From the NCBI GenBank assembly GCA_964016885.1, contig OZ024742.1:7440001-7504000 (forward strand): a DNA stretch of 64,000 nt. Reading direction: 5' to 3'. The DNA is from Eledone cirrhosa. Taxonomy: Eukaryota. Positions 6,001 through 58,700 of the stretch are shown in pieces. Position numbers and translations under genes: made by a program. Below the pieces are notes generated by a model, which worked only from the letters and a program-made list of their open reading frames with translations, did not search any database and was not told the DNA's origin. How positions within the stretch are numbered: position 1 is the first letter of the stretch; each line of letters begins with the position of its first letter.

Positions 6001-8540
6001 TACGACTTTCTCTGTAACTGTCATAGTTTCTACGACATTTTCTGTAACTGTCATAGTTTCTACGACTTTCCCTATAACTGTCATAGTTTCTACGACTTTC
6101 TCTCTAACTGTCATAGTTTCTACGACAATCTCTGTAACTGTCAGAGTGTCTACGACTTTCTCTGTAACTGTCATATTTTCTACGACTTTCTCTGTAACTG
6201 TCAGAGTGTCTACGACTTTCTCTGTAACTGTCAAAGTTTCTACGACATTTTCTGTAACTGTCATAGTTTCTACGACTTTCTCTGTAACTGTCATAGTTTC
6301 TACGACATTTTCTGTAACTGTCATAGTTTCTACGACTTTCCCTATAACAGTCATAGTTTCTACGACTTTCTCTGTAACTGTCATAGTTTCTATGACTTTC
6401 TCTGTAACTGTCATAGTTTCTACGACTTTCTCTGTAACTGTCATAGTTTCTATGACTTTCTCTGTAACTGTCATAGTTTCTACGACTTTCTCTGTAACTG
6501 TCATAGTTTCTACGACTTTCTCTGAAACTGTCATAGTTTCTACGACTTTCTCTGTAACTGTCATAGTTTCTACGACTTTCTCTGTAACTGTCATAGTTTC
6601 TATGATTTTCCCTGTAACTGTCATAGTTTCTACGACATTCTCTATAACTGTCATAGTTTCTACGAATTTCTCTGTAACTGTCATAGTTTCTACGACTTTC
6701 TCTGTAACTGTGATAGTTTCTACGACTTTCTCTGTAACTGTCATAGTTTCTATGATTTTCTCTGTAACTGTCATAGTTTCTACGACACTCTCTATAACTG
6801 TCATAGTTTCTACGACTTTCTCTGTAACTGTCATAGTTTCTATGACTTTCTCTATAACTGTCATAGTTTCTACGACTTTCTCTGTAACTGTGATAGTTTC
6901 TACGACTTTCTCTGTAACTGTCATAGTTTCTATGATTTTTCTGTAACTGTCATAGTTTCTACGACATTCTCTATAATTGTCATAGTTTCTACGACATTCT
7001 CTGTAACTGTCATAGTTTCTACTACTTTCTCTGTAACTGTCATAGTTTCTACGACTTTCTCTGTAACTGTCATTGTTTCTACGACTTTCTCTGTAACTGT
7101 CATAGTTTTTATGACTTTCCCTATAACTGTCATAGTTTCTACGACATTCTCTGTAACTGTCATAGTTTCTACGACATTCTCTGTAACTGTCATAGTTTCT
7201 ACAACTTTCTCTGTAACTGTCATAGTTTCTAAGACTTTCCCTATAACTGTCATAGTTTCTACGACATTCTCAGTAACTGTCATAGTTTCTATGACTTTCT
7301 CTATAACTGTCATAGTTTCTACGACTTTCTCTGTAACTGTCATAGTTTCTATGACTTTCTCTGTAACTGTCATAGTTTCTACGACTTTCTCTGTAACTGT
7401 CATAGTTTCTACGACTTTCTCTGTAACTGTTATAATAGTTTCTATGACTTTCGCTGTAACTGTCATAGTTTCTACGACTTTCTCCGTAACTGTCATATTT
7501 TCTACGACTTTCTCTGTAACTGTCATAGTTTCTACGACTTTCTCCGTAACTGTCATATTTTCTACGACTTTCTCTATAACTGTCATAGTTTCTACGACTT
7601 TCTCTGTAACTGTCATAGTTTCTATGACTTTCTCTGTAACTGTCATAGTTTCTATGACTTTCTCTGTAACTGTCATAGTTTCTACGACTTTCTCTGTAAC
7701 TGTCATAGTTTCTACGACTTTCTCTGTAACTGTCATAGTTTCTATGACTTTCTCTGTAGCTGTCATAGTTTCTACGACATTCTCTGTAACTGTCATAGTT
7801 TCTACGACTTTCTCTGTAACTCTCATAGTTTCTACGACTTTCTCTGTAACTGTCATAGTTTCTATGACTTTCTCTGTAACTGTCATAGTTTCTACGACTT
7901 TCTCTGTAACTGTCATAGTTTCTATGACTTTCTCTATAACTGTCATAGTTTCTATGACTTTCTCTGTAGCTGTCATAGTTTCTACGACATTCTCTGTAAC
8001 TGTCATAGTTTCTACGACTTTCTCTGTAACTGTCATAGTTTCTACGACTTTCTCTGTAACTGTCATAGTTTCTATGACTTTCTCTGTAACTGTCACCTTT
8101 TCTACGACGTTCTCTGTAACTGTGATAGTTTCTATGACTTTCTCTGTAACTGCCATAGTTTCTACGACTTTCTCTGTAACTGTCATAGTTTCTACGACTT
8201 TCTCTATAACTGTCATTTTATCTATGACTTTCTCTCTAACTGTCATAGTTTCTACGACTTTCTCTGTAACTGTCATAGTTTCTACGACTTTCTCTATAAC
8301 TGTCATAGTTTCTACGACATTCTCTGTAACTGTCATAGTTTCTATGACTTTCTCTATAACTGTCATAGTTTCTACGACTTTTTCTGTAACTGTCATAGTT
8401 TCTATGACTTTCTCTATAACTGTCATAGTTTCTATGACTTTCTCTGTAACTGTCATAGTTTCTACGACTTTTTCTATAACTGTCATAGTTTCTATGACTT
8501 TCTCTATAACTGTCATAATTTCTACGACTTTCTCTATAAA
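1..8540. repeat. 30-bp minisatellite array, consensus CGACTTTCTCTGTAACTGTCATAGTTTCTA, ~285 copies visible (runs off the left edge)
   Basis: Exact 30-bp periodicity. The phase shifts only at 1-bp deletions (~3157, ~6939) and 3-bp insertions (~3650, ~7432). Confidence 0.98.
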
Positions 8541-12600: not shown

Positions 12601-15600
12601 TGTGATATTATTGGTGGTGGTGTCTTTACTCTATAACTGTATGTGATATTATTGGTGGTGTCTTTACTCTATAACTTTATGTGATATTATTGGTGGTGGT
12701 GTCTTTACTATATAAGTGTATGTGATATTATTGGTGGTGGTGTCTTTACTCTATAACTGTATGTGATATTATTGGTGGTGTCTTTACTCTATAACTGTAT
12801 GTGATATTATTGGGGGGTCTTTACTCTATAACTGTATGTGATATTATTGCTGGTGTCTTTACTCTATAACTGTATGTGATATTATTGATGGTTTTGTATT
12901 TACTCTATAACTGTATCTGATATTATTGGTGGTGGTGTCTTTACTCTGTAACTGTATGTGATATTATTGGTGGGCTGTTTACTCTATAACTGTATGTGAT
13001 ATTACTGGTGGCAGCGTCTTTACTCTATAACTGTATGTGATATTATTGGTGGCAGTGTCTTTACTCTATAACTGTATCTGATATTATTGGTAGTGTCTCT
13101 ATTCTATAACTGTATGTGATATTATTGGTGGCGGTGTCTTTACTCTATAACTGTATGTGATATTAGTGGTGGCGGTGTCTTTACTCTCTAAATGTATGTG
13201 ATATTAGTGGTGGCGGTGTCTTTACTCTATAACTGTATGTGATATTATTGGTGGTGTCTTTACTCTATAACTCTATGCGATATTATTGGTGGTGGTGTCT
13301 TTACTCTATAACTGTATATGATATTATTGGTGGGGCGGTGGATTGGCAGTATCGGTAGAGGGTCGGACGCCATGCTTTCCAGCATAGTTACGTCCCTTTA
13401 CCATCCGAGTTCAAATCCCGCCGAGGTTGACTTTGCCTTTCATCCTTACGGGGTCGATAAAATAAAGTACCAGTAATGCACTGGTAATTGCTGGCCTTGT
13501 GCCTAAAGTAGAAACAATTATTGGTGGTGGTGTCTTTACTAAATAACTGTATGTGATATTATTGGTGGTGTCTTTACTCTATAACTGTATGTGATATTAT
13601 TGCTGGTGGTGTCTTTACTCTATAACTGTATGTGATATTATTGTTGGTGGTCTCTTTACTCTATAACTGTATTTGATATTATTGGTGATGGTGTCTTTAC
13701 CATATAACTGTATGTGATATTATTGGTGGTGGTGTCTTTACTCTATAACTGTATGTGATATTATTGCTGGTGGTGTCTTTACTCTATAACTGTATGTGAT
13801 ATTATTGTTGGTGGTCTCTTTACTCTATAACTGTATTTGATATTATTGGTGGTGGTGTCTTTACTCTATAACTGTATGTGATATTATTGGTGGTGGTGTC
13901 TTTACTCTATAACTGTATGTGATATTATTGGTGTTGGTGTCTTTACTATATAACTGTTTGTGATATTATTGGTGGTGTCTTTACTCTATAACTCTATGTG
14001 ACATTATTGGTGTTATCTTTACTCTATAACTGTATGTGATAATATTGGTGGGTCTTTACTCTATAACTGTATGTGACGTTATTGGTGGTGGTGTCTTTAC
14101 TCTGTAACTGAATGTGATATTATTGGTGGTGCTCTCTTTACTCTATAAATCTATGTGATATTATTGGTGGGTTCTTTACACTATAACTGTATTTGATATT
14201 ATTGGTGGTGGTGTCTTTACTCTATAATTGTATGTGATATTATGAGTTGTGTCTTTACTCTATAACTGTATGTGATATTATTGGTGGTGGTGTCTTTACT
14301 CCATAACTGTATGTGATATTATTGGTGGTGTCTTTACTATATAACTGTATGTGATATTATTGGTGGTGTCTTTACTTTATAACTGTATGTGATATTATTG
14401 GTGGTGGTGTCTTTACTCCATAACTGTATGTGATATTATTGGTGGGGTCTTTACTCTATAAGTGTATGTGATATTATTGGTGATGTCTTTACTCTATAAC
14501 TGTATGTGATATTATTGGTGGTCGTGTCTTTACTCTATAACTGTATGTGGTATTATTGGTGGTGGTGTATTTACTCTATAACTGTATGTGATATTATTGG
14601 TGGTGTCTTTACTATATAACTGTATGCGATATTACTGGTGGTGGTGTCTTTACTCTATAACTGTATGTCATACTATTGCTGGTGGTGTCTTTATTCTATA
14701 ACTGTATATGATATTATTGGTGGTGGTGTCTTTATTCTATAACTGTATGTGATATTATTGGTGGGGTCTTTACTCTATAAGTGTATGTGATATTATTGGT
14801 GACGTCTTTACTCTATAAGTGTATGTGATATTACTGGTGGTGGTGTCTTTAATCTATAACTGTATGTGATATTATTGGGGATGGTGTCTTTACCCTATAA
14901 CTGTATGTGATATTATTGGGGATGGTGTCTTTACTATATAAGTGTATGTGATATTATTAGTGGTGGTGTCTTTACTCTATAACTGTATGTCATACTATTG
15001 CTGGTGGTGTCTTTACTCTACAACTGTATGTGATATTATTGGTGGGGTCTTTACTCTATAACTGTATCTGATATTATTGCTGGTGTCTTTACTCTATAAC
15101 AAGTATATGTTATTATTGGTGGGGTCTTTACTCTATAACTGTATGTGATATTATTGGGGGGTCTTTACTCTATAACTGTATGTGATATTATTGCTGGTGT
15201 CTTTACTTCATAACTGTAAGTGATTTTATTGGTGGTTTTGTCTTTACTCTATAACTGTATGTGATATTATTGGTGGGGTGTTTACTCTATAACAGTATGT
15301 GATATTATTGGTGGTGTCTTTACTTTATAACTGTATGTGATATTATTGGTAGGGTCTTTATTCTATAACTGTATGTAATATTATTGGTGGTGGTGTCTTT
15401 ACTCTATAACTGTATCTGATATTATTGGTAGTGTCTTTATTCTATAACTGTATGTGATATTGTTGGTGTTGGTGTCTTTACTCTGTAACTATATGTGATA
15501 TTATTGGTGGGCTGTTTACTCTATAACTGTATGTGATATTATTGGTGGCGGCGTCTTTACTCTATAACTGTATGTGATATTATTGGTGGCAGTGTCTTTA

Positions 15601-45038: not shown

Positions 45039-47008
45039 TGTTGTTGTTGGTGTTGTTGTTGTTGTCGTCGTTGTTGTCGCTTTCATCGTTACTGTTGCTG
45101 CTGCTGCTATTGTTGTTGTTGTTGTTTTTGTTGTTGTAGTTGTTGCTATTGTTGTTGTTATTGCTGCTGTTGTTGTTGTTGCTGTTGTCGATGTCGTTAC
45201 TGTTGTCGTTGTTGCTGCTATTGTTGTTGTTATTGTAGTTGTTCTTGCTATTGTTGCTGTTGTTAATGTAGTTGTTGTTGCTACTGCTGTTGTTGTTATT
45301 ATAGTTGTTCTTGCTATTGTTGCTGTTGTTATTGTAGTTATTGCTATTGTTGCTGTTGTTATTGTAGTTGTTGCTATTTTTGTTGTTGTTATTGTAGTTG
45401 TTGCTACTACTGTTGTTGTTATTTTAGTTGTTGCTACTGCTGTTGTTGTCATTGTAGTTGTTGCTATTGTTTTTGTTGTTGTAGTTGTTGCTATTGTTGT
45501 TGTTGTTATTGTAGTTGTTATTGCTATTGTTGCTGTTGTTATTGTAGTTGTTGCTATTGTTGTTGTTGTTATTGTAGTTGTTGCTATTGTTGTTGTTGTT
45601 ATTGTAGTTGTTGCTACTGCTGTGGTTGTTATTGTAGTTGTTGCTACTGCTGTTGTTGTTATTGTAGTTGTTATTGCTATTGTTGCTGTTGTTATTGTAG
45701 TTGTTGCTATTGTTGTTGTTGTTATTGTAGTTGTTACTACTGCTGTTGTTGTTATTGTAGTTGTTGCTACTGCTGTTGTTGTTATTGTAGTTGTTATTGC
45801 TATTGTTGCTGTTGTTATCCTAGTTGTTGCTACTGCTGTTGTTGTTATTGTAGTTGTTGCTACTGCTGTTGTTGTTATTGTACTTGTTATTGCTATTGTT
45901 GCTGTTGTTATTGTAGTTGTTGCTACTGCTGTTGTTGTTATTGTAGTTGTTGCTACTGCTATTGTTGCTGTTGTTATTGTAGTTGTTGCTACTGCTGTTG
46001 TTGTTATTGTAGTTGTTATTGCTATTGTTGCTGTTGTTATTGTAGTTGTTGCTACTGCTGTTGTTGTTATTGTATTTGTTATTGCTATTGTTGCTGTTGT
46101 TATTGTAGTTGTTGCTACTACTGTTGTTGTTATTGTAGTTGTTATTGCTATTGTTGCTGTTGTTATTGTAGTTGTTGCTACTGCTGTTGTTGTTATTGTA
46201 GTTGTTGCTACTGCTATTGTTGCTGTTGTTATTGTAGTTGTTGCTACTGCTGTTGTTGTTATTGTAGTTGTTATTGCTATTGTTGCTGTTGTTATTGTAG
46301 TTGTTGCTACTACTGTTGTTGTTATTGTAGTTGTTATTGCTATTGTTGCTGTTGTTATTGTAGTTGTTGCTACTGCTGTTGTTGTTATTGTAGTTGTTGC
46401 TACTGCTATTGTTGCTGTTGTTATTGTAGTTGTTGCTACTGCTGTTGTTGTTATTGTAGTTGTTATTGCTATTGTTGCTGTTGTTATTGTAGTCGTTGCT
46501 ACTACTGTTGTTGTTATTGTAGTTGTTGCTACTGCTATTGTTGGTGTTGTTATTCTAGTTGTTGCTACTGCTGTTGTTGTTATTGTAGTTGTTGCTACTG
46601 CTATTGTTGCTGTTGTTATTTTAGTTGTTGCTACTGCTGTTGTTGTTATTGTAGTTGTTGCTACTGCTGTTGTTGTTATTGTAGTTGTTATTGCTATTGT
46701 TGCTGTTGTTATTGTATTTGTTGCTACTGCTGCCGTTGTTATTGTAATTGTTATTGCTATTGTTGCTGTTGTTATTGTAGTTGTTGCTACTGCTGCAGTT
46801 GTTATTGTAATTGTTATTGCTATTGTTGCTTTTGTTATTGTAGTTGCTGCTACTGCTGTTGTTGTTATTGTAGTTGTTGTTAATATTGTTGTTGTTATTG
46901 TAGTTGTTGCTACTGCTGTGGTTGTTATTGTAGTTGTTGCTACTGCTGTTGTTGTTGTTATTGCTGCAGCTACTGTTGTTGTTATGATGATGATGGTGAT
47001 GATGATGA
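44945..47008. repeat. (GTT)n-derived tract developing a 30/33/36-bp higher-order unit (GTTATTGTAGTTGTTGCTACTGCTGTTGTT)
   Basis: Irregular GTT/GCT up to ~45230, then recurrent GTTATTGTAGTT spaced about 27-36 bp apart; ends in (GAT)n. Confidence 0.93.
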
Positions 47009-47104
47009 CTTCGTTGATCCTTTAATTTATATGGGGCTGAAAAAAATAATTCAGCATACATTGAATAATGTAGTTTCAATTAAATTTCAGCTTTAAAAAA
47101 AACC

Positions 47105-47145
47105 ATAATGGTCACGGATGGAATGCCTTTTAAAATAGGTTTGTA
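47105..47145 (-). repeat. Fragment of a second, older dispersed repeat family
   Basis: The reverse complement AAAGGCATTCCATCCGTGACCAT resembles AAAAATGTTCCAACTGTGACCAT (~53491) and AAAGGTATTCCAGCCATGACCAT (~55541). Confidence 0.5.
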
Positions 47146-47539
47146 AATGTAGTTATAAATAACAATATAAACGACAGAACCAACAACCACCACAACAAAA
47201 ACTCCGACAACCGTCAATATGACAAAACTTCCGAGTCATCAATTTCTCTGAGAAAGGTTAGTAATTGCAATGAAGCAAGTTTAAACCGATGATGTTCTGA
47301 TCGTATTAAGTTTCCTATGAGTTATGTGTAAACCAATGTTTAGTGAAATAAGGCAGCTATGCTCCACGTGCCATTGGCTCCGCTTTCAGTGCATATAGAC
47401 AATTATTAACTAAACCGTTAATGAATTTGAACAATATTTTGTTTGATTTTATTTGCACATATTCATTTAATCAATTGAATGAAATAATTGTTCCAATATT
47501 AACCAAAGAATTGGTAAATGATAACTAAAAGGATCAGGA

Positions 47540-47542
<3 letters not shown>

Positions 47543-47599
<57 letters not shown>

Positions 47600-47695
47600 C
47601 TTTACACACATACATATGACAATACACACACACACATATATATATATATGTGTGAGTGTGTGTATAAATCTTCCTCTCTCTCTCCCTCTCTCTGA

Positions 47696-47761
<66 letters not shown>

Positions 47762-47765
47762 CACA
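47543..47765. repeat. (CT)n, (CA)n and (TA)n dinucleotide microsatellite cluster
   Basis: Dinucleotide runs read directly from the sequence. Confidence 0.95.
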
Positions 47766-47913
47766 TATCAGTATTTTACATGTACTCTGCAGTATTAACT
47801 TTAATAGCCACCACTATCTTAATTAAAGTGTATGGCTATGTACCTAAGTGTGTGAGAATAGAATTTTTTTTCCATTTCCTTTTTCGTGTGACTGATAACA
47901 TTTTTCGCCTAAC

Positions 47914-48014
47914 CTGTAGCTCATCCAGCATATGACATGTTGAACAGAGCTGAGCCGGGTATTTATTGTCGTGTCCATATAACTTAATACCAATGCAAAC
48001 TTCCGAAACATTAA
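47914..48014 (-). CDS. Candidate 101-nt internal exon of an unidentified minus-strand gene
   Basis: On the minus strand there is a long pyrimidine tract ending ...CTTTGCTTTCCCAAATGTAG| as acceptor and CAG|GTTAGG as donor. Two frames are open (NVSEVCIGIKLYGHDNKYPAQLCSTCHMLDELQ or LMFRKFALVLSYMDTTINTRLSSVQHVICWMSY). No protein family was recognised. Confidence 0.4.
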
Positions 48015-48302
48015 CTACATTTGGGAAAGCAAAGGATAGAAATAAATAAAGAAATGAAGAAATAAATGCATGTTTAAACTGGCTTGCTTGGCAATCACTG
48101 ATATAATATTTTGACTTCTTAGTTTGAGAGAGAACACACTAACTATTAATCAACTACGACTTAAACTGTTATATGTAAATATGTGGTGGACGAGTGTTTT
48201 AGGTGGCAACAATGATGTTGTTTAGCTCTAGAGTAAGAAGGATATCTAATCTAACATCAAGGTCTGTACTTGCTGGGTAGGGGAAAGAAGATCATATCCA
48301 TT

Positions 48303-48430
48303 CCAGTATTTGACCGGCACTTCCATTTATCAAACCCTGAAATGTTGAATATTAATTTTGACTCCGGTGGGATTTGAACTGAGAACGACTACAAAGCATT
48401 TTACCTGATGTTCTAGCGATACTGCCGCTT
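48303..48430 (-). mobile_element. Degenerate tRNA-derived SINE fragment
   Basis: GGGATTTGAACTGAGAAC (reverse complement of the B box) and GCGATACTGCC (reverse complement of the A-box region). Confidence 0.6.
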
Positions 48431-48442
48431 CTACACCAAATT

Positions 48443-48637
48443 AATAATTATTTATACTTTTAGCATAAGGTCAGCAATTATCACAGTGTATTACTGGTAC
48501 TTTATTTTATCGACCCCGTAAGGATGAAAGGTAAAGTTAACCTCGGCGGGATTTGAACTCAGACCATAAAGGGCAGTAACTCTTTTGCTGCAAAGCATGG
48601 CGTCCGATCCTCTACCGATACTGCCAATCCATCGCCC
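48443..48637 (-). mobile_element. Full-length SINE (same family as 13334) with a 16-bp target-site duplication
   Basis: The reverse complement matches the SINE from head to tail. ACACCAAATTAATAAT occurs at 48433-48448 and 48638-48653. Confidence 0.9.
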
Positions 48638-48685
48638 ACACCAAATTAATAATAAGCAAGTAAGTTTATGATCAAATGCATTCGA

Positions 48686-48960
48686 ACCGACTTTGGTAGG
48701 ATTTGAACTCAGAATGTAAAGAGCAGGAAGAAATGACGCAAAGTATTTTATCCGATGCTCTAACGATTCTATCAATCCGCCATCCCCAATTGTTTCGAAT
48801 TAAGGCACAAGCTGGGAGGTGAAATTGATTATACTATTGTATGGACAACGGAATAATGAAAAGGGAAGTTTAACTCGGCGGTATTTGAACTCAGAACGTA
48901 ACCAAGGGCCGCAAGGAATTTCCCTCGACGTTCTAGCCATTCTGCTAATCCCCTCCACCT
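48686..48960 (-). mobile_element. Two older degenerate SINE copies in tandem
   Basis: ATTTGAACTCAGAA (reverse-complement B box) at ~48701 and ~48883, each followed by CTA(A/G)C(G/C)ATTCT(A/G) head-like sequence. Confidence 0.65.
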
Positions 48961-49684
48961 TAACACCAGATTAATAATAAGCAAGTAGTTCTACGGGGAA
49001 AACCCTTTGAACCGTAACAGTAATATATTTAATTTTCAGGCAAACTTTGGTCAACCTGGCATCACGTTTTGAACGATGTTAAGGAGTGAATCAAGGGAGA
49101 TTTGGATACTATAGAAGCAACATCAGTGACTCGTGTTAGTGATGCAACGCAATGTTACATTCGATGGTGTTTAACTATTTATTTGATTTTGAATATAGTC
49201 ATCTAGAGGTCTAACATAATTGTTTGGTAATCTTGTATTTTCCTTTCATTATATTGTCTACAGCAAATTATATTTTATAGTTTCCATCCCTTGGTTGGAA
49301 TATAAATGATATATTTTTATATATTACTTATTTAATATACATGAATAAACCTAAACATCAATGTTGCCGCTGTTTTCAACCAAACATCAATTCTCTCAGC
49401 TCGGATCAGTGATTGTTAAATAGCATTACTATATATTCCAGTCGGTCATGGATATCGTTTTAATATACCCTGTAAAAGAACGGCTCGTTAAAATATCGAA
49501 GCTAAATTTGAGAGTTTAGCAAGATATCCTTTCAACGTATATCATGACTATGATATATTCCTTGGTGGATGTACCAAGATATATATATGTGTTATCACGA
49601 TACACTAATATAATATTTATGGTTTCTATCTTGGGACATAAATCTATCGTCAGTATGAATTAAGTTGTAATCATGTAAAATGTC

Positions 49685-50133
49685 AGAATCTCTCTCTTTC
49701 GCACATTCATCCATCTAGCTATCTATCTAACTACATATCTATATATCCATCTATCTATCTATATATTTCTCTTTCCATTTCTATCTCTTCCTCACCTACA
49801 CAAACTCTCTCTCTCTCTCTATCTCTCCCTCTCTTTCACACACATACACTCTCTCTCTATATATATATATAAATGTGTGTATATATATATGTGTGTATAT
49901 GTATCTGTGGATATGAATGTATGTATATATGTACAAATATGTGTATACATACATGTATGTATGTATATATGTACAAATATGTGTATACATACATGTATGT
50001 ATGTCTAGAATGATAGATGAACAGAAGGGGAGAAGTTTGGATCGATAGTTGGATGCGTATATTAAAATTATGGATATTTATATTTACAATGTCGCAATCT
50101 AGTATACATATATATGCACACATATATATATAT

Positions 50134-50203
<70 letters not shown>

Positions 50204-50238
50204 CTATTAATTTATCTATATAGCTATTAATTTATATA
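49685..50238. repeat. Mixed (TATC)n/(CT)n/(TA)n microsatellites with a 40-bp tandem duplication (49917-50004) and a 20-bp duplication (~50198-50238)
   Basis: Read directly from the sequence. Confidence 0.9.
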
Positions 50239-50363
50239 AATATTACACACAGTAGATTGACAGCTCACGTAGAGTTTGCTCGACGGTGCCAGTTGAAATT
50301 CCAAAAGTAATCCGGAGAAAAGTAGAAAGATTTGAATGGATACAGTTTAGTTGAAAGGAATTT

Positions 50364-50415
50364 ATTATTTTTTTAATAATTTATATACATACATATATAT
50401 ACATATATAAGCATG

Positions 50416-50485
<70 letters not shown>

Positions 50486-50539
50486 TACATGCTTATATAT
50501 GTATATATATGTATGTATATAAATTATTAAAAAAATAAT
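50364..50539. repeat. ~176-bp near-perfect palindrome: 55-bp arms around a (TA)n core
   Basis: 50364-50418 (ATTATTTTTTTAATAATTTATATACATAC...AAGCATGTAA) is the reverse complement of 50485-50539. Confidence 0.92.
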
Positions 50540-50577
50540 GAATAAACAAAGAAACAGTTCCTTATATTAAAAAAAAT

Positions 50578-50719
50578 TCATTATTTTACGATCGTTTCTA
50601 GGATATATATGTGTTTGAGTTGGTATGCATATTCTATAGATCTATGTACAATATTTATACAAACTATCAGAGGGAATATACATACCTGCACATATATATG
50701 CTGTCTTCAGAAATAATGA
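50578..50719 (-). ncRNA. Type-I hammerhead ribozyme motif (minimal helix III, extended helix II), uninterrupted copy
   Basis: The minus strand reads UCAUUAUUU-CUGAAGA-[105 nt]-GAAA-C-GAUC-G-UA-AAAUAAUGA. This gives a 9-bp helix I, a complete core, a palindromic GAUC loop and a GUA cleavage triplet. Helix II is CAGCAUAUAUAUGUG/CACAUAUAUAUCCUA (13 of 15 paired). Confidence 0.78.
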
Positions 50720-51622
50720 TACTTGTTTATTGATAAGAACAAAGATTCAATACAATAGGTCTGTTTGGAAACAGGTTTTGAATTGACCAATCAGGAGATA
50801 GTGAGGGTCAAGATAGTGATATAGAATTAGGAGAACCTTAAATTATGGGTAGAGGAAGGTAGATTTCAGTTTTGGATGGAAAAGAGTATTATGAATGAAG
50901 GATTACTTTAGGGAAGAAGTAGGTCATATGTTGACCTCAGAAATAATTTTATTTGTACATTGAATAAAACCAACAAAGAACCAATATATTCTGTCTGTTT
51001 GGTAAGAGGTTTAGAATTAACCAATAGAAAGTTAATAATTGGCCAAATGGTAAAATAGTAGTAATTGAAACTTATTTTAGGGGTGAAACTAGGTCAGGTG
51101 GTCAGTAGAAGGTATACAAGCAGTTGCTGTTATAAAATAGTAATGCCAATACAAATATCTAAGGTGACCAGAGTTTTAAGATAAGGATGTTAGTGAAAAA
51201 AATACATCTATGAAAAGGATATAAAATTAATTTAATTGATGGGTATATTTATATTGATAAAATTATACTAATACATATAGATATGATAAATAAGAGTTAG
51301 ATGCAGTTGAAAAGTTCTGTTAAGGATGATGGGAGATTAAAAGAATATAAAAATGATAAAATTATTTCTGAGGTCAACATATGACCTACTTCTTCCCTAA
51401 AGTAATCCTTCATTCATAATACTCTTTTCCATCCAAAACTGAAATCTACCTTCCTCTACCCATAATTTAAGGTTCTCCTAATTCTATATCACTATCTTGA
51501 CCCTCACTATCTCCTGATTGGTCAATTCAAAACCTGTTCCCAAACAGACCTATTGTATTGAATCTTTATTCTTATCAATAAACAAGTATCATTATTTCTG
51601 AAGACAGCGGTGGATTCTGAAG

Positions 51623-51811
51623 GGCGGTGGATTGGCAGTATCGGTAGAGGGTCGGACGCCATGCTTTCAGCATAGTTACGTCCCTTTACGATCTGAGTTC
51701 AAATCCCGCCGAGGTTGACTTTGCCTTTCATCCTTACGGGGTCGATAAAATAAAGTACCAGTAATGCACTGGGTAATTGCTGGCCTTGTGCCTAAAGTAG
51801 AAACAATTATT
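51623..51811 (+). mobile_element. Full-length young SINE inserted in the right arm, with an 18-bp target-site duplication
   Basis: ATTATTTCTGAAGACAGC occurs at 51591-51608 and 51806-51823. The left arm shows the empty site once (50700-50717, reverse complement). Confidence 0.95.
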
Positions 51812-51943
51812 TCTGAAGACAGCATATATATGTGCAGGTATGTATATTCCCTCTGATAGTTTGTATAAATATTGTACATAGATCTATAGAATATGCATAC
51901 CAACTCAAACACATATATATCCTAGAAACGATCGTAAAATAAT
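51806..51943 (+). ncRNA. Second hammerhead ribozyme motif (right arm), immediately 3' of the SINE
   Basis: ATTATTT-CTGAAGA(51813-51819)...GAAA(51925-51928)-C-GATC-GTA(51934-51936)-AAATAAT. A 7-bp helix I is retained. Confidence 0.72.
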
Positions 51944-52575
51944 GAATTTTTTTTAATATAAGGAACTGTTTCTTTGTTTATTCATTATTTTTTTAATAAT
52001 TTATCTTGACTCTGTTTTCCGTTTATTTTTCACCGAAAGTAGTTTTTGAATGCATCTTCTCTTTTCATGATATCCGGATTACATTGAGTTCTTCATACGG
52101 ATTGGACACTACCGTAAACTTTTGGTAGATTTTTCTACATATGTTTGTATATATATATATATATTATGTATAAATATTTCGTATCTCCAAGGAAATACTG
52201 TTTTAGGAAGCCGTAGCTATGCAAACACCCTCTGGTGATGTCCAGCAGAAGCAAGGGGGATAACCGTCTATGCATGTCAGGCTTAACTGACCTTCGTCTG
52301 GACGGTCCCTCCCACCGCTTGCGACTGCTATGTGTGTGTGTGTATGCGTGCGCGCGTGTGTTATATTGAGTGTATGTGTATCAGTTGTTTGGTCAACACT
52401 AAAGAATTGTTATTCCACTAAGTTATTCTTACGAAGATTACCCTGAGTAGTTTCATGTGACCCCTTAATATAAAGTAGGGAGATCTCAGTCCTTCTAACT
52501 AACATATTATTTGAGAATGTTACCATGTTTTTGTTTCATGTGTTCAGCTACTTCTAATTAACTTCTATTAAAAAG

Positions 52576-52763
52576 GGCGGTGAATTGGCAGTATCGGTAG
52601 AGGGTTGGACGCCATGCTTTCTAGCATAGTTACGTCCCTTTACAGACTGAGTTCAAATCCCGCTGAGGTTAATTTTGTCTTTCATCCTTACGGGGTCGAT
52701 AAAATAAAGTACCAGTAATGTACTGTGTATTTGTTGGCCTTGTGCCTAAAGTAGAAACAATTA
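52576..52763 (+). mobile_element. Full-length SINE, slightly more diverged
   Basis: GGCGGTGAATTGGCAGTATCGGTAGAG...GTTCAAATCCC...GCCTAAAGTAGAAACAATTA. Confidence 0.92.
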
Positions 52764-53183
52764 TATCAGCGAATATTGGGGGAATTATTAAGTTCTATTA
52801 TATCAACGAAGACAATATTTGGGGAGTTATTTGTGTGACATACCTCAAATATGTTTGATAATTTCATTCCCAATGATTTTTATTTGTGTGGATTTCGAAC
52901 CCATTAATAGCAGTGAAGAAAATATATATTGCGGTGTTTAGTATCTATTAAATGTGTTACTAAGCAGCTGAGATATACGATGTACAAATACAGCACAAGA
53001 TGTAACGGACGCTGTGTAAATGTGTAAAAGTATATATATATACACTGACATATCTAAACGTGTTTCTGTAAACATGTGTAGAAATATCAGAGTAGTTATT
53101 AAAATATGTACGTAACTTTGATGAAATCTTTTCTTTATTTCTCTAAAGATAAATATCTATTATATTTAGTTTCGTCTCATTAA

Positions 53184-53337
53184 TTTCTCAGTTCTCATCC
53201 TGTCTATTTCCACTTTTACTTTCATCCTTCAGAGACGATAAATGAAATAAGTACCAGTTAACTCCCCGACTAAGTTAAATTAACTACATCCTTCACATTA
53301 AAATATCCGGATTATGTCAATGTCGGAAATCATTATT
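53184..53337 (+). mobile_element. Highly degenerate SINE fragment
   Basis: CTTTCATCCTTCAGAGACGATAAATGAAATAAGTACCAGT resembles the SINE central domain; ends GAAATCATTA. Confidence 0.6.
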
Positions 53338-53459
53338 TTTGTTCATTTACCTAGAAAATATACTTTGTAGTTTGCCGACACCTGTTAATTTCTGGGTTCA
53401 AATCAGACCAGTTTATAATTTAAATTTCCATGTTTCTGGTGTTGTTGGAGCTCACCTTC

Positions 53460-53525
53460 GGATCTGTCCAGTTTGAGCAGATCTATGATTAAAAATGTTC
53501 CAACTGTGACCATCCCATCTTTTTA
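53460..53525 (+). repeat. Fragment of the second dispersed repeat family
   Basis: Shares the TTCCA...TGACCATC motif with 47105-47145 (reverse complement) and 55525-55575. Confidence 0.45.
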
Positions 53526-53718
53526 CATATGTAGCGTATCTAGGAGTTCCTTATATTAGAAAGTTTTCCCTCGGCGGGAATTAAATATTGATGGCACAGC
53601 GGTAATATAATTCTAAAGGCAGAGTATATGTCTGAAATATAAGATGCTGAGAAGTGAAACAGTTTTAATCACTGGTCTACAGAGACTGAACAACAAACAA
53701 TTACCTTTAATGCATCAT

Positions 53719-54190
53719 TTTCATCCTTACGGGGTCGATAAATAAAGTACCAGTAATGCACTGGGGTAACTGCTGGCCTTGTGCCAAGAGTAGAAACAAT
53801 TATTTAGATTCATCTTTCCATTCTGAGTTCAAATCCCGCCGAAGTCAACTTTGCCTTTCATCCTTACGGGGTCGATAAAATAAAGTACCAGTCACACACT
53901 GAGGTCAATTTAATCGACTTTCCTCTCCCCGGAAATTGCTGGCCTTGTGCTTATACATTATTTAGATTCATCAGTGGCTGTGGTTTGGCAGAATCAGTAG
54001 AGCGTCGGACAACATTCTTTGCAAAGTTAACTCCCTTTATGTTCTGAGTTCGAATCCCACCGAGGTTAGCTTTAACTTTTATTCTTACGGGGTTGATACA
54101 ATAAAGTACCAGTAATGCACAGGGATCGATTTTACAGATTTTCTACTCGCCCAAAGTTGTTTACCTTGTGACTAAATCAGAAATCATTTT
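53719..54190 (+). mobile_element. Head-to-tail stack of three SINE copies (53719-53804 5'-truncated; 53815-53962 5'-truncated; 53975-54190 full-length, older)
   Basis: Three copies of CTTACGGGGT(C/T)GATA...AAAGTACCAGT, separated by ATTATTTAGATTCATC at 53799-53814 and 53957-53972, with a degenerate copy at 54186-54201. Confidence 0.88.
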
Positions 54191-54200
54191 TTAGATTGAC

Positions 54201-54450
54201 CTGACCCACCTACACTACTATTTTAGACCAGTCCATTTCTCACTGACCCACCTACACTAGTATTTTAGACCAGTCCATTTCTCACTGACATACTACACTA
54301 GTATTTTAGACCAGTCCATTTCTCACTGACATACTACACTAGTATTTTAGACCAGTCCATTTCTCACTGACATACTACACTAGTATTTTAGACCAGTCCA
54401 TTTCTCACTGACATACTACACTAGTATTTTAGACCAGTCCATTTCTGACA
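54201..54450. repeat. Six-copy 41/42-bp minisatellite CTGACATACTACACTAGTATTTTAGACCAGTCCATTTCTCA
   Basis: TATTTTAGACCAGTCCATTTCT at 54219, 54261, 54302, 54343, 54384 and 54425. Confidence 0.95.
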
Positions 54451-54718
54451 GACATACCAGATCTGTCTTATTTAAGACTATTACTGACAAACATACAAGA
54501 TGAATGTTGTAAGACAGTCCCTTTCTGACATACCAGTCGAGTTCAACGTTCGTTTGTTCACTCGTGGGGTTTGTTTGTTTTCAAAGGTTTCCTGTTTTTT
54601 TTTCTGGTTGTACACATTTATAATTTTTTCTGACTTTCAAAGAGAATATTAAATGGTTGGAAATATAATTAATTTGACAATTTAAATGCTTCTTTTATTT
54701 TCGTGGTGAGGGGATATA

Positions 54719-54967
54719 GAGAAAGAAAGAAAGAAGGAAGAAAAGAGAGAAGGAAGGGAAAAAAGAAAGAAAGAAAGAAGGAAGAAAAGAAATATAGAAA
54801 GAAAGAAAGAAAGAAAGAAGAAAAGAAAGATAGAAAGAAAGAAAGAAAGAAGGAAGAAAAGAAAGATGGAAAGAAAGAAAGAAGGAAAGAAAGAAGGAAA
54901 GAAAGAAGGAAAGAAAGAAAGAAGAAAGAAGGAAAAATATAAAGAAAGAAGGAAGGAAAGGAGGAAG

Positions 54968-55005
<38 letters not shown>

Positions 55006-55285
55006 AGGAAAAAAAGAAAGATAGAAAGAAGGAAAGAAAGAAGTAAGGAAAGAAAGAAAGAAAGAAAGAATGAAAGATGGAAAGAAAGAATGAAAGAAAG
55101 AAAGAAAGAAAGATAGAAATATAGAGAGAAAGAAAGAAAGATAGAAAAAAAAGGAAGAAAGAAGGAAGGAAAGAAAGAAAGAAAGATAGAAAGAAAGAAA
55201 GATAGAAAAAAAGAAAGAACGAAGGAAGGAAAGAAAGAAAGATAGAAAGAAAGAAAGAAAGAAAGAGATGGAAAGAAAGAAAGAA
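54719..55285. repeat. Polypurine (GAAA)n/(GGAA)n microsatellite
   Basis: About 570 bp that is almost purely A/G on the + strand. Confidence 0.95.
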
Positions 55286-55499
55286 GGTTTATATGAGAGT
55301 TCTGTTTTATATATTTCTTACCTGTATTACATTTATTCTATTACAGACTATCGATACGAACTAATTGAGTTTTCGATATTTCAAAGGCCATTTTTTATTT
55401 ATTATTTCGATGTTAATGATAATAATTATAAAAAAAAACTGAAAACAAAAAGATAATTATTGAAAATTGTATTGGTGGTGGCGGTGTTCGGGAGGATGG

Positions 55500-55685
55500 T
55501 GTTTTTAGTCCCTTAGCCACAATAAAGCACATCTATACCTAAAGGTATTCCAGCCATGACCATCGTCACTTTTTCAGTTTAAATAGCATTTATCTAACAA
55601 TGTTGCACTATTGTTTGATTCCATTGTCAATGATAATAGGATTGGAAAGATATTTAGTTGTTATTTCTAGCATTTCAGGACGACT
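55500..55685 (+). repeat. Longer fragment of the second dispersed repeat family
   Basis: Contains AAAGGTATTCCAGCCATGACCATC, shared with two other sites in the window. Boundaries are approximate. Confidence 0.45.
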
Positions 55686-55772
55686 GGTTTGTTAGTTATG
55701 TTTGGTTTTAATATGATTGTGAGGATTGTGTTGTGTTTTGTAGTTGTTAATGTTGTTGATGTTCCTGTTGAA

Positions 55773-58700
55773 TGTGATGGTGGTGGTGTATGTTGTGATG
55801 GTGGTGTTGTATGTTGTTGATGTTCCTGTTGAATGTGATAGTGGTGTTGTGATGGTGGTATTGTAGATTGTGATGGTGGTGTTGTATGTTGTGAAGGTGG
55901 TGTTGTATGTTGTGATGGTGGTGTTGTATTTTGTTGACGTTCCTGTTGAATGTGATAGTGGTGTTGTGATGGTGGTATTGTAGATTGTGATGGTGGTGTT
56001 GTATGTTGTGATGGTGGTGTTGTATGTTGTGATGGTTGTGTTGTATGTTGTTGATGTTCCTGTTGAATGTGATAGTGGTGTTGTGATGGTGGTATTGTAG
56101 ATTGTGATGGTGGTGTTGTATGTTGTGATGGTGGTGTTGTATGTTGTGATGGTAGTGTTGTAGATTGTGATGGTGGTGTTGTATGTTGTGCTGGTGGTGT
56201 TGAATGTTGTGATGGTGGTGTTGTATGTTGTGATGGTGGTGGTGTGTGTTGTGATGGTGGTGGTGTATGTTGTGATGGTGGTATTGTATGTTGTGATGGT
56301 GGTGTTGTATGTTGTGATGGTGGTGTTGTATGTTGTGATGGTGGTGCTGTATGTTGTGATGGTGGTGTTGTATGTTGTGATGGTGGTATTGTATGTTGTG
56401 ATGGTGGTGTTGTATGTTGTGATGGTGGTGTTGTATGTTGTGATGGTGGTGTTGTAGATTGTGATGGTGGTGTTGTATCTTGTAATGGTTTTGTTGTATG
56501 TTGTGATGGTGGTGTTGTATTTTGTGATGTTGGTGCTGTATGTTGTGATGGTGGTGTTGTATGTTGTGATGGTGGTGTTGTATGTTGTGATGGTGGTGTT
56601 GTATGTTGTGATAGTGGTGGTGTATGTTGTGATGGTGGTGTTGTATGTTGTGATGGTGGTGTTGTATGTTGTGATGGTGGTGTTTAATGTTGTGATGGTG
56701 GTGTTGTAGATTGTGATGGTGGTGTTGTATCTTGTAATGGTTTTGTTGTATGTTGTGATGGTGGTGTTGTATTTTGTGATGTTGGTGCTGTATGTTGTGA
56801 TGGTGGTGTTGTATGTTGTGATGGTGGTGTTGTATGTTGTGATGGTGGTGTTGTAGATTGTGACGGTGATGTTGTATGTTGTGATGGTGGTGTTGTATGT
56901 TGTGTTGGTCATGTTGTAGATTGTGATGGTGGTGTTGTATGTTGTGCTGGTGGTGGTGTATGTTGTGATGGGGGTGGTGTATGTTGTGATGGTGGTGTTG
57001 TATGTTGTGATGGTGGTGCTGTATGTTGTGATGGTGGTGCTGTATGCTGTGATGGAGGTGTTGTATGTTGTGATGGTGGTGTTGTATGTTGTGATAGTGG
57101 TGTTGTATGTTGTGATGGTGGTGTTGAATGTTGTGATGGTGGTGTTGTATGTTGCGATGGAGGTGTTGTATGTTGTGATGGTGGTGCTGTATGTTGTGAT
57201 GGTGGTATTGTATGTTGTGATGGTGGTGTTGTATGTTGTGATGGTGGTGTTGTAGGTTGTGATGGTGGTGTTGTATGTGGTGATGGTAGTGTTGTATGTT
57301 GTGATGGTGGTGTTGTATGTTGTGATGGTGGTGTTGTATGTTGTGATGGTGGTGTTGTAGGTTGTGATGTTGGTATTGTATGTTGTGATGGTGGTGTTGT
57401 ATGTTGTGATGGTGGTGTTGTATGTTGTGATGGTGGTGTTGTATGTTGTGATGGTGGTGTTGTATGTTGTGATACTGGTGTTGTATGTTGGGATGGTGGT
57501 GTTGTATGTTGTGATGGTGGTGTTGTATGTTGTGATGGTGGTGCTGTATGTTGTGATGGTGGTGTTGTATGTTGTGATGGTGGTGTTGTATGTTGTGATG
57601 GTGGTGATGTATGTTGTGATGGTGGTGATGTATGTTGTGATGGTGGTGCTGTATGTTGTGATGGTGGTGTTGTATGTTGTGATGGTGGTGTTATATGTTG
57701 TGATGGTGGTGATGTATGTTGTGATGGTGGTGATGTATGTTGTGATGGTGGTGCTGTATGTTGTGATGGTGGTGTTGTATGTTGTGATGGTGGTGTTGTA
57801 GATTGTGATGGTGGTGTTGTATGTTGTGGAGGTGGTGTTGTATGTTGTGATGGTGGTGTTGTATGTTGTGATGGTGGTGTTGTATGTTGTGATGGTGGTG
57901 TTGTATGTTGTGATGGTGATGTTGTATGTTGTGATGGTGGTGTTGTATGTTGTGATGGTGGTGTTGTATGTTGTGATGGTGGTGTTGTATGTTGTGATGG
58001 TGGTGTTGTATGTTGTGATGGTGGTGTTGTATGTTGTGATGGTGATGTTGTATGTTGTGATGGTGGTGTTGAAGATTGTGATGGTGGTGTTGAATGTTGT
58101 GATGGTGGTGTTGTATGTTGTGATGTTGGTATTGTATGTTGTGATGGTGGTGTTGTATGTTGTGCTGGGGTTTTGTATGTTGTGATAGTGGTGTTGTATG
58201 TTGTGATGGTGGTGTTGTATGTTGTGATGGTGGTGTTGTATGTTGTGATGGTGGTGTTGTATGTTGTGATGGTTGTGTTGTAAATTGTGATGGTGGTGTT
58301 GTAGATTGTGATGGTGGTGTTGTATGTGGTGATGGTAGTGTTGTATGTTGTGATAATGGTGTTGTATGTTGTGGTGGTGGTGTTGTATGTTGTGATAGTG
58401 GTGTTTTATGTTGTGATGGTGGTGTTGTATGTTGTGGTGGTGGTGTTGTATGTTGTGATGGTGGTGTTTTATGTTGTGGTGGTGGTGTTGTATGTTGTGA
58501 TGGTGTTGTTGTATGTTGTGATTGTGGTGTTGTATGTGGTGATGGTAGTGTTGTATGTTATGATGGTGGTGTTGTATGTTGTGATGTTGTTGTTGTATGT
58601 TGTGATGGTGGTGTTGTATGTTGTGATAGTGGTGGTGTATGTTGTGATGGTGGTGTTGTATGTTGTGATAGTGGTGATGGTGGTGTTGTATGTGGTGATG

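What the first reader, a model, noticed from the sequence alone, without database searches (positions are those of the whole stretch)
50519..52004. 434-bp inverted arms carrying two outward-facing ribozymes: Penelope-like inverted pseudo-LTR structure
Seen: 50519-50952 is the reverse complement of 51356-52004 minus the SINE (two mismatches noticed), with a 403-bp spacer. Either strand therefore presents one sense hammerhead, and a read-through transcript would form ~430 bp of dsRNA. The spacer holds a degenerate direct copy of part of the left arm (TCTGTTTGGTAAGAGGTTTAGAATTAACCAAT at ~50994 versus TCTGTTTGGAAACAGGTTTTGAATTGACCAAT at ~50760), so it belongs to the same element. Established knowledge: 5'-truncated Penelope-like copies often show an inverted pseudo-LTR. 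Inference: this is a young truncated or non-autonomous (retrozyme-like) copy and a likely ADAR or small-RNA substrate.
Basis: partly seen in the sequence, partly recalled or inferred. Interest (0 to 1): 0.7.

Follow-up and report, generated by a model that had tools for sequence, protein, structure and literature searches.

The report
Inverted Penelope-like fragment with long-stem hammerheads
Two near-identical back-to-back copies of a non-coding repeat end each carry a hammerhead-ribozyme motif with an unusually long stem; this is likely a young, truncated insertion of a Penelope-type retrotransposon, a known layout, and whether the motifs cut RNA is untested.

Summary
50519-50952 is the reverse complement of 51356-52004 once a 197-bp SINE and one copy of its 18-bp target duplication are removed: 434 of 434 positions align, with 2 mismatches, around a 403-bp spacer. 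Each arm carries a type I hammerhead motif pointing outward, with a full core and a palindromic helix III (0 of 20,000 shuffles). Its helix II is 105 nt long, and Rfam misses it.

The layout matches the published Penelope-like insertion: a longer copy (spacer plus arm) beside (TA)n, with an inverted 5'-truncated copy at its 5' end. No RT or GIY-YIG remnant was found, and copy number could not be checked, so clade membership is not shown. The retrozyme definition is not met.

Ribozyme activity here is doubtful. No second intact sense copy exists for dimer cleavage, the SINE is predicted to disrupt stem I of the right copy, and read-through RNA would bury either motif in duplex. ADAR or small-RNA targeting is untested.

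New detail: a 184-bp palindrome to the left repeats the arm's end plus 34 nt, possibly the Penelope tail. Verdict: new member of a known kind, modest interest.

The parts
50519..50952 (-). Left arm (434 nt), 3' part of the longer copy; sense is the minus strand
50578..50719 (-). Type I hammerhead motif of the left arm: stem I 9 bp, core at 50710-50704, 105-nt helix II domain, GAAA box at 50598, 2-bp helix III with palindromic tetraloop, predicted cut after 50587
50953..51355 (-). 403-nt spacer, the 5' continuation of the longer (minus-strand) copy; no coding remnant found
50926..51106 (-). Diverged direct repeat (71%) of 50696-50870; straddles the arm's inner boundary
50934..50947 (-). Damaged 5' half of a second hammerhead (stem I strand plus core with position 9 changed); its mirror is 51361-51374, 5 nt from the start of the right arm; no matching 3' half was found
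   Evidence: alignment; sequence; 3'-half test negative, 569 of 1000 shuffles
51356..52004 (+). Right arm: inverted, 5'-truncated copy (434 nt without the SINE)
51609..51805 (+). SINE inserted in the right arm, with a short duplication at its 5' junction; 97.9% identical over 191 columns to a copy at 13333-13522
51591..51608 (+). First copy of the SINE's 18-bp target duplication (second copy 51806-51823); it is the hammerhead's stem I 5' strand, core and first 4 nt of helix II
51806..51943 (+). Type I hammerhead motif of the right arm: stem I 7 bp, core 51813-51819, helix II domain 51820-51924, predicted cut after 51936, 68 nt from the arm's end
50485..50518 (-). 34-nt segment X beyond the left arm only: candidate Penelope-type tail, or low-complexity host flank
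50419..50484 (.). (TA)n microsatellite, centre of the palindrome and likely target
50360..50418 (+). Short sense copy of the arm's last 21-25 nt plus X, tail-to-tail with the left arm; left half of the 184-bp palindrome 50360-50543

Best explanation
This is likely a young, non-coding insertion made by a Penelope-like element's (PLE) enzyme from an RNA that carried the element's 3' end with its hammerhead motif. Shown: a longer copy (spacer plus arm, 837 nt, or 871 with X) on the minus strand beside (TA)n, joined head-to-head to a 434-nt truncated copy on the plus strand; a SINE with its own target duplication in the right arm only. Inferred steps: (1) the enzyme cut both strands of an AT-rich site and primed one cDNA from each end; (2) the left cDNA copied X (if X is the tail), the arm and the spacer, while the right cDNA copied the arm only and stopped 5 nt beyond the damaged upstream hammerhead half; (3) the two cDNA ends were joined, which leaves both hammerheads pointing outward; (4) the SINE inserted later, at the ATTATT motif that its family prefers; (5) the 55-nt tail-to-tail copy came from a second, very short insertion at the same (TA)n or from a fold-back there. 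The diverged repeat was already in the template, as a fossil partial tandem. The locus is most likely inert: each strand has one intact motif with a dimer-type helix III and no sense partner, and the antisense arm is transcribed first on either strand.
For: Geometry and identity. Motif beyond chance; helix II fold z -4.73, 0 of 200 shuffles. PMC8557442 describes an inverted 5'-truncated copy adjacent at the 5' end, a 30-40-bp tail often at one end only, and (TA)n targets (passages). Its File S1 and S2 list Penelope-13_HM with an inverted 5' copy and a hammerhead on each strand, and Hydra-clade motifs near the 3' end. PMC4209133 reports opposite-strand hammerhead pairs 100-700 bp apart in Schistosoma and attributes most single motifs to truncated PLEs; here the cores are 888 bp apart without the SINE. 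PMC11167929 shows a PLE protein cutting and extending both strands, two reverse-transcription starts that define the tail, AT-rich cut sites, and insertion that does not need ribozyme cleavage. The motif's unpaired C and A at the base of helix II also occur in PLE-X1_cBra. The duplicated arm ends exactly where low-complexity sequence begins. PMC9977147 reports de novo PLE insertions of median 128 bp (passage).
Against: No RT or GIY-YIG remnant: Pfam gave 1 weak unrelated match (E 0.21) for 7 translations; phmmer gave 0 hits among 1.84 billion proteins for 1 of the 6 frames; two word-index searches were empty. The diverged repeat shows no clear codon pattern (22 non-synonymous against 6 synonymous changes in the best frame). 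No second copy of the arm family exists elsewhere in the window, and no eukaryotic genome was searchable. The 105-nt helix II is about twice the longest (about 53 nt) among 34 rows of File S2. The conserved G10.1-C11.1 pair of PMC4209133 is absent. No target duplication of 6 bp or more flanks the arms themselves. X is low-complexity and matches unrelated microsatellite at 27 of 34 positions.
Confidence: 0.72

Rival explanations
1. A DNA-level inverted duplication (template switch or fold-back repair) copied part of an older single PLE-type fragment, and the 184-bp palindrome arose in the same way; reverse transcription did not make the inversion.
For: Two young inverted duplications lie within 1.7 kb. 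(TA)n can snap back on itself. The flanks 50243-50358 and 52005-52145 show weak inverted similarity (1, 3, 16 and 53 of 1000 shuffles under four scorings), and a 7-bp repeat sits at 50359 and 51998.
Against: The duplication's outer end coincides with the element's T-rich 3' end and its inner end with the upstream hammerhead half, which random breakpoints would not favour. The same layout is typical of PLE insertions.
Confidence: 0.13
2. The arms are the long terminal inverted repeats of a non-autonomous DNA transposon (MITE or foldback type) that once captured a hammerhead-bearing fragment.
For: 434-bp near-perfect inverted repeats around a short non-coding centre; no RT remnant.
Against: No target duplication of 6 bp or more at the arm ends, and the flanking bases are not TA...TA. 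The spacer continues only the left arm's orientation (inverted test 353 of 500 shuffles, direct test 0 of 500). No transposase remnant.
Confidence: 0.07
3. The unit is a decayed non-LTR retrozyme dimer (about 230-330-nt monomers) that was copied from a circular RNA and inverted on insertion.
For: A direct repeat at about 230-nt offset that includes a second hammerhead half; low GC (0.27-0.29); retrozymes are proposed to derive from PLE pLTRs (bioRxiv 10.64898/2026.07.22.740005).
Against: The units are only 71% alike and the upstream one has no 3' half. No third unit (372 and 403 of 500 shuffles). Rolling-circle copying would give near-identical units.
Confidence: 0.06
4. The inverted repeat is a fold-back artefact of sequencing or assembly.
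For: Palindromes at (TA)n are error-prone, and complex PLE structures trouble assemblies.
Against: One arm alone carries a SINE with an exact 18-bp duplication, and the arms differ at 2 sites. The doubt is larger for the 184-bp palindrome than for the arms.
Confidence: 0.02

Closest known systems
Endonuclease-bearing Penelope-like elements with an inverted 5'-truncated copy, e.g. Penelope-13_HM of the Hydra clade (PMC8557442)
   Same: Head-to-head inverted copy, a hammerhead on each strand facing outward, motif close to a T-rich 3' end, (TA)n beside the insertion, possible one-sided tail.
   Different: No ORF or remnant here; helix II domain of 105 nt against about 12-53 nt in File S2; helix III is 2 bp with a palindromic tetraloop; a fossil 71% repeat lies upstream.
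Opposite-strand minimal hammerhead pairs in Schistosoma mansoni (PMC4209133)
   Same: Two type I motifs on opposite strands under 1 kb apart, with a palindromic helix III region.
   Different: Longer stem I (7-9 bp), far longer helix II, no G10.1-C11.1 pair.
Adineta vaga Pen2/Pen2a inverted-pLTR insertions (PMC3846280)
   Same: Incomplete derivatives flanked by inverted pLTRs, some without a target duplication; a 31-bp tail at one inverted pLTR.
   Different: pLTRs there are about 180-220 bp and ORF parts remain; here the arm is 434 bp and there is also a tail-to-tail palindrome.
Metazoan non-LTR retrozymes (PMC7229834; bioRxiv 10.64898/2026.07.22.740005)
   Same: Non-coding, low GC, type I hammerhead with a 2-bp helix III capped by a tetraloop.
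   Different: Retrozymes are head-to-tail arrays with an intact hammerhead per unit; here there is one intact motif per strand and the copies are inverted.

Membership tests
Penelope-like element (EN+ clades) | ORF with telomerase-like RT and GIY-YIG endonuclease | tested here: not met
   None in this copy. Expected for a truncated or non-autonomous copy, but it bars assignment to a clade; the claim made is 'works like' and 'likely mobilised by'.
Penelope-like element (EN+ clades) | Type I hammerhead core near the 3' end / in the pLTR | tested here: met
   predicted cut 68 nt from the arm end. Rfam does not detect it.
Penelope-like element (EN+ clades) | Short palindromic helix III (dimer type) | tested here: met
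   8-nt palindrome, 2 bp plus tetraloop; predicted self-duplex -12 kcal/mol.
Penelope-like element (EN+ clades) | Conserved G10.1-C11.1 pair and short helix II | tested here: not met
   C and A face each other at the base, then 2 bp, a C-C mismatch and a long stem. A C/A base occurs in PLE-X1_cBra and U/U in many Hydra motifs, so this is a variant feature rather than a disqualifier.
Penelope-like element (EN+ clades) | Inverted 5'-truncated copy adjacent at the 5' end | tested here: met
   definition.
Penelope-like element (EN+ clades) | 30-40-nt tail at one end only | tested here: inconclusive
   34-nt X follows the left arm and the short copy but not the right arm; it is low-complexity (27 of 34 match elsewhere).
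Penelope-like element (EN+ clades) | Insertion at (TA)n (Hydra, Neptune, Naiad) | tested here: inconclusive
   (TA)n lies 34 nt beyond the left arm; the right arm ends in non-repetitive sequence about 140 nt from the next TA run.
Penelope-like element (EN+ clades) | Interspersed, 5'-truncated copies across the genome | not testable with these tools
   No eukaryotic genome collection; no further copy in the window.
Naiad clade | N-terminal endonuclease; no canonical hammerhead, at most core halves 35-50 nt apart | tested here: inconclusive
   No protein to test. The core halves here are 105 nt apart and closed by stems I and III. Two short motifs from the 3' half had 0 occurrences in the paper's supplement, whose sequences are line-wrapped.
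Non-LTR retrozyme | Head-to-tail units, each with an intact type I hammerhead | tested here: not met
   definition.
Non-LTR retrozyme | Circular RNA from self-cleaved monomers | not testable with these tools
   No RNA data.
TIR DNA transposon / MITE | Target duplication directly outside the inverted repeats | tested here: not met
   None of 6 bp or more; no TA...TA or 3-bp repeat by reading; only the dinucleotide AT, which is part of the arms.
TIR DNA transposon / MITE | Transposase in the element or a partner | tested here: inconclusive
   None in this copy; partners could not be searched.

The most novel reading that the evidence does not exclude
The arm belongs to an active, non-coding PLE-mobilised family whose hammerhead works with a 105-nt helix II, a form invisible to Rfam and to published descriptors, so such elements are undercounted. 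This locus also records both reverse-transcription start sites in one insertion (with the 34-nt tail on one strand, without it on the other), plus a tail-to-tail product at the same (TA)n.
Probability: 0.2. Interest if true: 0.5.

Novelty: new member of a known kind. Interest (0 to 1): 0.27.

Why it matters
As one more inverted Penelope-like fragment it matters little: the layout is described in several animals. Two details have some value. If paralogues conserve the 105-nt helix II and it cleaves, hammerhead surveys that cap this stem miss a class of motifs. If X is the tail, the locus is a natural record of two-ended priming with two start sites, which so far rests mainly on one in vitro system (PMC11167929).

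Tried and rejected
Rfam: 0 matches at gathering score in 64 kb; 54 matches up to E 10 in 47000-55800, all below gathering score and none a hammerhead. tRNA scan: 0 genes. Coding remnant: six-frame reading and codon-position test gave 10/12/18 mismatches by position in the best frame, which is not convincing; Pfam, phmmer and two word-index searches were empty; only 1 of 6 frames went to phmmer. Relatives elsewhere: 0 exact matches of a 19-nt motif in bacterial and archaeal genomes, none in plasmids or phages; these collections are not where a eukaryotic repeat is expected, and metagenome and viral contigs stayed unchecked. A 3' half for the upstream hammerhead looked plausible by eye but failed (569 of 1000 shuffles). 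A third repeat unit failed, and the distal part of the diverged repeat was not significant alone (102 of 500). I considered the right flank 52005-52145 as a long tail: its similarity to the left flank is weak and depends on scoring (10 and 22 of 500; 1-53 of 1000), so it is left open. Candidate target duplications, 7 bp (50359/51998) and 6 bp (50481/52002), were picked after the fact and exclude each other; the 7-mer was in 0 of 3,683 background windows. Ribozyme-specific targeting by the SINE was rejected: 4 of 5 SINE loci examined have flanking repeats that start with ATTATT. Strand asymmetry of helix II is small (-32.1 sense, -29.0 antisense) and does not show selection on RNA. Host identity: a literature search with a SINE motif found 0 papers. 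The primary paper on dimeric PLE hammerheads (PMC5785218) was not held. A search for long helix II in print (5 papers) found only 6-bp 'long' stems in viral motifs; this is a narrow search and no proof of absence.

Full report
Setting. The window is mostly satellite DNA (30-, 3-, 41-, 9/30- and 21-bp arrays); the finding lies in an island of about 8.8 kb rich in SINEs and microsatellites. The window holds no N, and ARAGORN and Rfam found no RNA gene. The SINE and the satellite landscape resemble octopus DNA, but that is my recollection and no call confirmed it (one search found 0 papers with a SINE motif). If it is right, recently active Penelope-like families are on record for Octopus vulgaris (31 families, 336 insertions; PMC13282606, passages).

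Observation. The arms match over 434 of 434 positions with 2 mismatches after removing the 197-nt SINE and one copy of its 18-bp duplication. The spacer is 403 nt. The arm-specific SINE makes an assembly artefact unlikely.

The hammerhead motif. A descriptor scan of both strands gave 2 hits in 64 kb, one per arm, both pointing outward. Each has a complete core, a 2-bp helix III with a palindromic tetraloop, a GUA cut site and a stem I of 9 bp (left) or 7 bp (right). Shuffled arms gave 89 of 20,000 loose hits, 15 with stem I of 7 bp or more, and 0 with the palindromic helix III. The helix II domain is 105 nt and folds as one long stem (z -4.73, 0 of 200 shuffles). That length probably explains why Rfam misses it. 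Among the 34 rows of the PLE hammerhead table in PMC8557442 File S2, the longest such domain is about 53 nt. The G10.1-C11.1 pair called highly conserved in PMC4209133 is absent, but a C/A base occurs in PLE-X1_cBra and a U-U base in an axolotl family (PMC7229834, passage).

Would it cut? Probably not from this locus. Motifs with so short a helix III are reported to need a dimer and to be slow even then. Each strand has one intact motif. The predicted probability of stem I was at most 0.12 for the right motif in all 18 sequence contexts tried, and ranged from 0 to 0.99 for the left; in the one structure inspected, the SINE's end pairs with the 5' half of the right motif. Because the arms are head-to-head, a read-through transcript on either strand makes the antisense arm first, and the predicted fold pairs the arms throughout (-841.5 kcal/mol). 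These are equilibrium predictions, not assays.

The spacer. It holds a diverged direct repeat of 50696-50870 at 50926-51106 (125 of 175 identical, 0 of 500 shuffles). The repeat runs in the left arm's orientation only (inverted test 353 of 500) and includes a damaged 5' hammerhead half. It crosses the arm's inner boundary, and both arms carry that part identically, so it predates the insertion and was in the template. The structure is therefore asymmetric: an 837-nt copy on the minus strand and a 434-nt truncated copy on the plus strand that starts 5 nt before the damaged half. No coding remnant was found.

The SINE. Its duplication is the ribozyme's 5' half, so the motif downstream stays complete in sequence. 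This reflects target preference: 4 of 5 SINE loci examined have flanking repeats that begin with ATTATT (18 bp in the arm, 16 bp at 48443, at least 9 bp at 13333, 16 bp around the composite at 53719-53976; none at 52573). A 97.9% identical copy at 13333 shows that the SINE family is also young.

50360-50543 is a palindrome with 2 mismatched pairs, centred on (TA)n. Its left half repeats the arm's last 21-25 nt plus the 34-nt segment X. X follows the left arm but not the right, and its length fits the 30-40-bp one-sided tail of PLEs. It is also low-complexity and matches unrelated microsatellite at 27 of 34 positions, so it may be host flank caught in a fold-back. I cannot separate these readings. 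Two candidate target duplications (7 and 6 bp) and a weak inverted similarity between the outer flanks remain open.

Mechanism. The best reading is two-ended target-primed reverse transcription by a PLE enzyme acting in trans or on a truncated template. PMC11167929 shows cutting and extension of both strands at AT-rich sites, two start sites that define the tail, and no need for ribozyme cleavage. PMC3846280 offers self-priming as another route to inverted junctions and notes that 3' self-priming on a sense template would give tail-to-tail repeats. The geometry, the motif, the repeat and the order arm-before-SINE are shown; the enzyme, the priming steps and the identity of X are inferred. Confidence 0.72. 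Rivals are DNA-level duplication (0.13), a TIR element (0.07), a decayed retrozyme (0.06) and an artefact (0.02).

Comparison and novelty. The architecture is published: an inverted 5'-truncated copy with optional tail and (TA)n target (PMC8557442), Penelope-13_HM with a hammerhead on each strand, and opposite-strand pairs in Schistosoma. It works like a PLE insertion, but the defining ORF is missing from this copy, so I do not assign a clade. It fails the retrozyme definition. The ADAR or small-RNA idea is possible but untested, and not special to this locus: inverted SINE pairs 3-4 kb apart give predicted duplexes of -316 and -283 kcal/mol, against -660 for the arms.

What I read. PMC4209133: parts 1-2 of 4 and passages. 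PMC11167929: parts 1-2 of 4. bioRxiv 10.64898/2026.07.22.740005: part 1 of 5. PMC8557442: passages, supplement searches and supplement part 2 of 59. Passages only: PMC3846280, PMC6765202, PMC7229834, PMC13282606 (supplement listed in 41, not read), PMC9977147, PMC13725137. Other papers were seen only as search listings. The supplements of PMC4209133 and PMC7229834 and the unheld PMC5785218 may list long-helix variants that I did not see.

Verdict. A real, young inverted Penelope-type fragment; new member of a known kind; interest 0.27. The long helix II and the possible tail record are the only parts worth follow-up, and both need a genome-wide paralogue search.

Noticed in passing
window 50360-50543: 184-bp palindrome centred on (TA)n that repeats the arm's 3' end plus 34 nt; either a second very short insertion tail-to-tail or a fold-back.
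   Followed up: partly
window 50243-50358 and 52005-52145: The outer flanks show weak inverted similarity (1-53 of 1000 shuffles by scoring) and each ends at a TA run; possibly an older inverted element that was the target.
   Followed up: partly
window 13333-13522: A SINE copy 97.9% identical to the one in the arm sits inside the 41-bp satellite with a short target duplication; it has not been spread by array turnover.
   Followed up: partly
window 51596-51633: Short tandem duplication (period about 17) across the SINE's 5' junction, mixing target and SINE-head sequence; suggests a template jump during SINE insertion.
   Followed up: no
window 53719-54124: Composite of SINE fragments with a 16-nt repeat at about 53799 and 53958, probably nested insertions at the same preferred motif.
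   Followed up: partly
window 48365-48901: Cluster of SINE copies on the minus strand, one near full length with a 16-bp duplication; inverted to the plus-strand copies 3-5 kb away.
   Followed up: partly
window 2-8539: 30-bp satellite of 284 copies with 0% indels; all six frames hold many stops (122-274), though stop-free runs exceed 1,000 codons, so a coding repeat is not indicated.
   Followed up: partly
window 9682-44891: 41-bp satellite of about 883 copies with rare variants recurring at about 6-7-kb spacing (e.g. 19320, 26932, 33772, 39813), which hints at higher-order repeats.
   Followed up: no
window 54210-54457: Six copies of a different 41-bp unit, 97% alike.
   Followed up: no
window 50153-50242: 20-bp tandem duplication at the end of a (TA)n run; it shares a short AT-rich word with both arm ends, probably by chance.
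   Followed up: no
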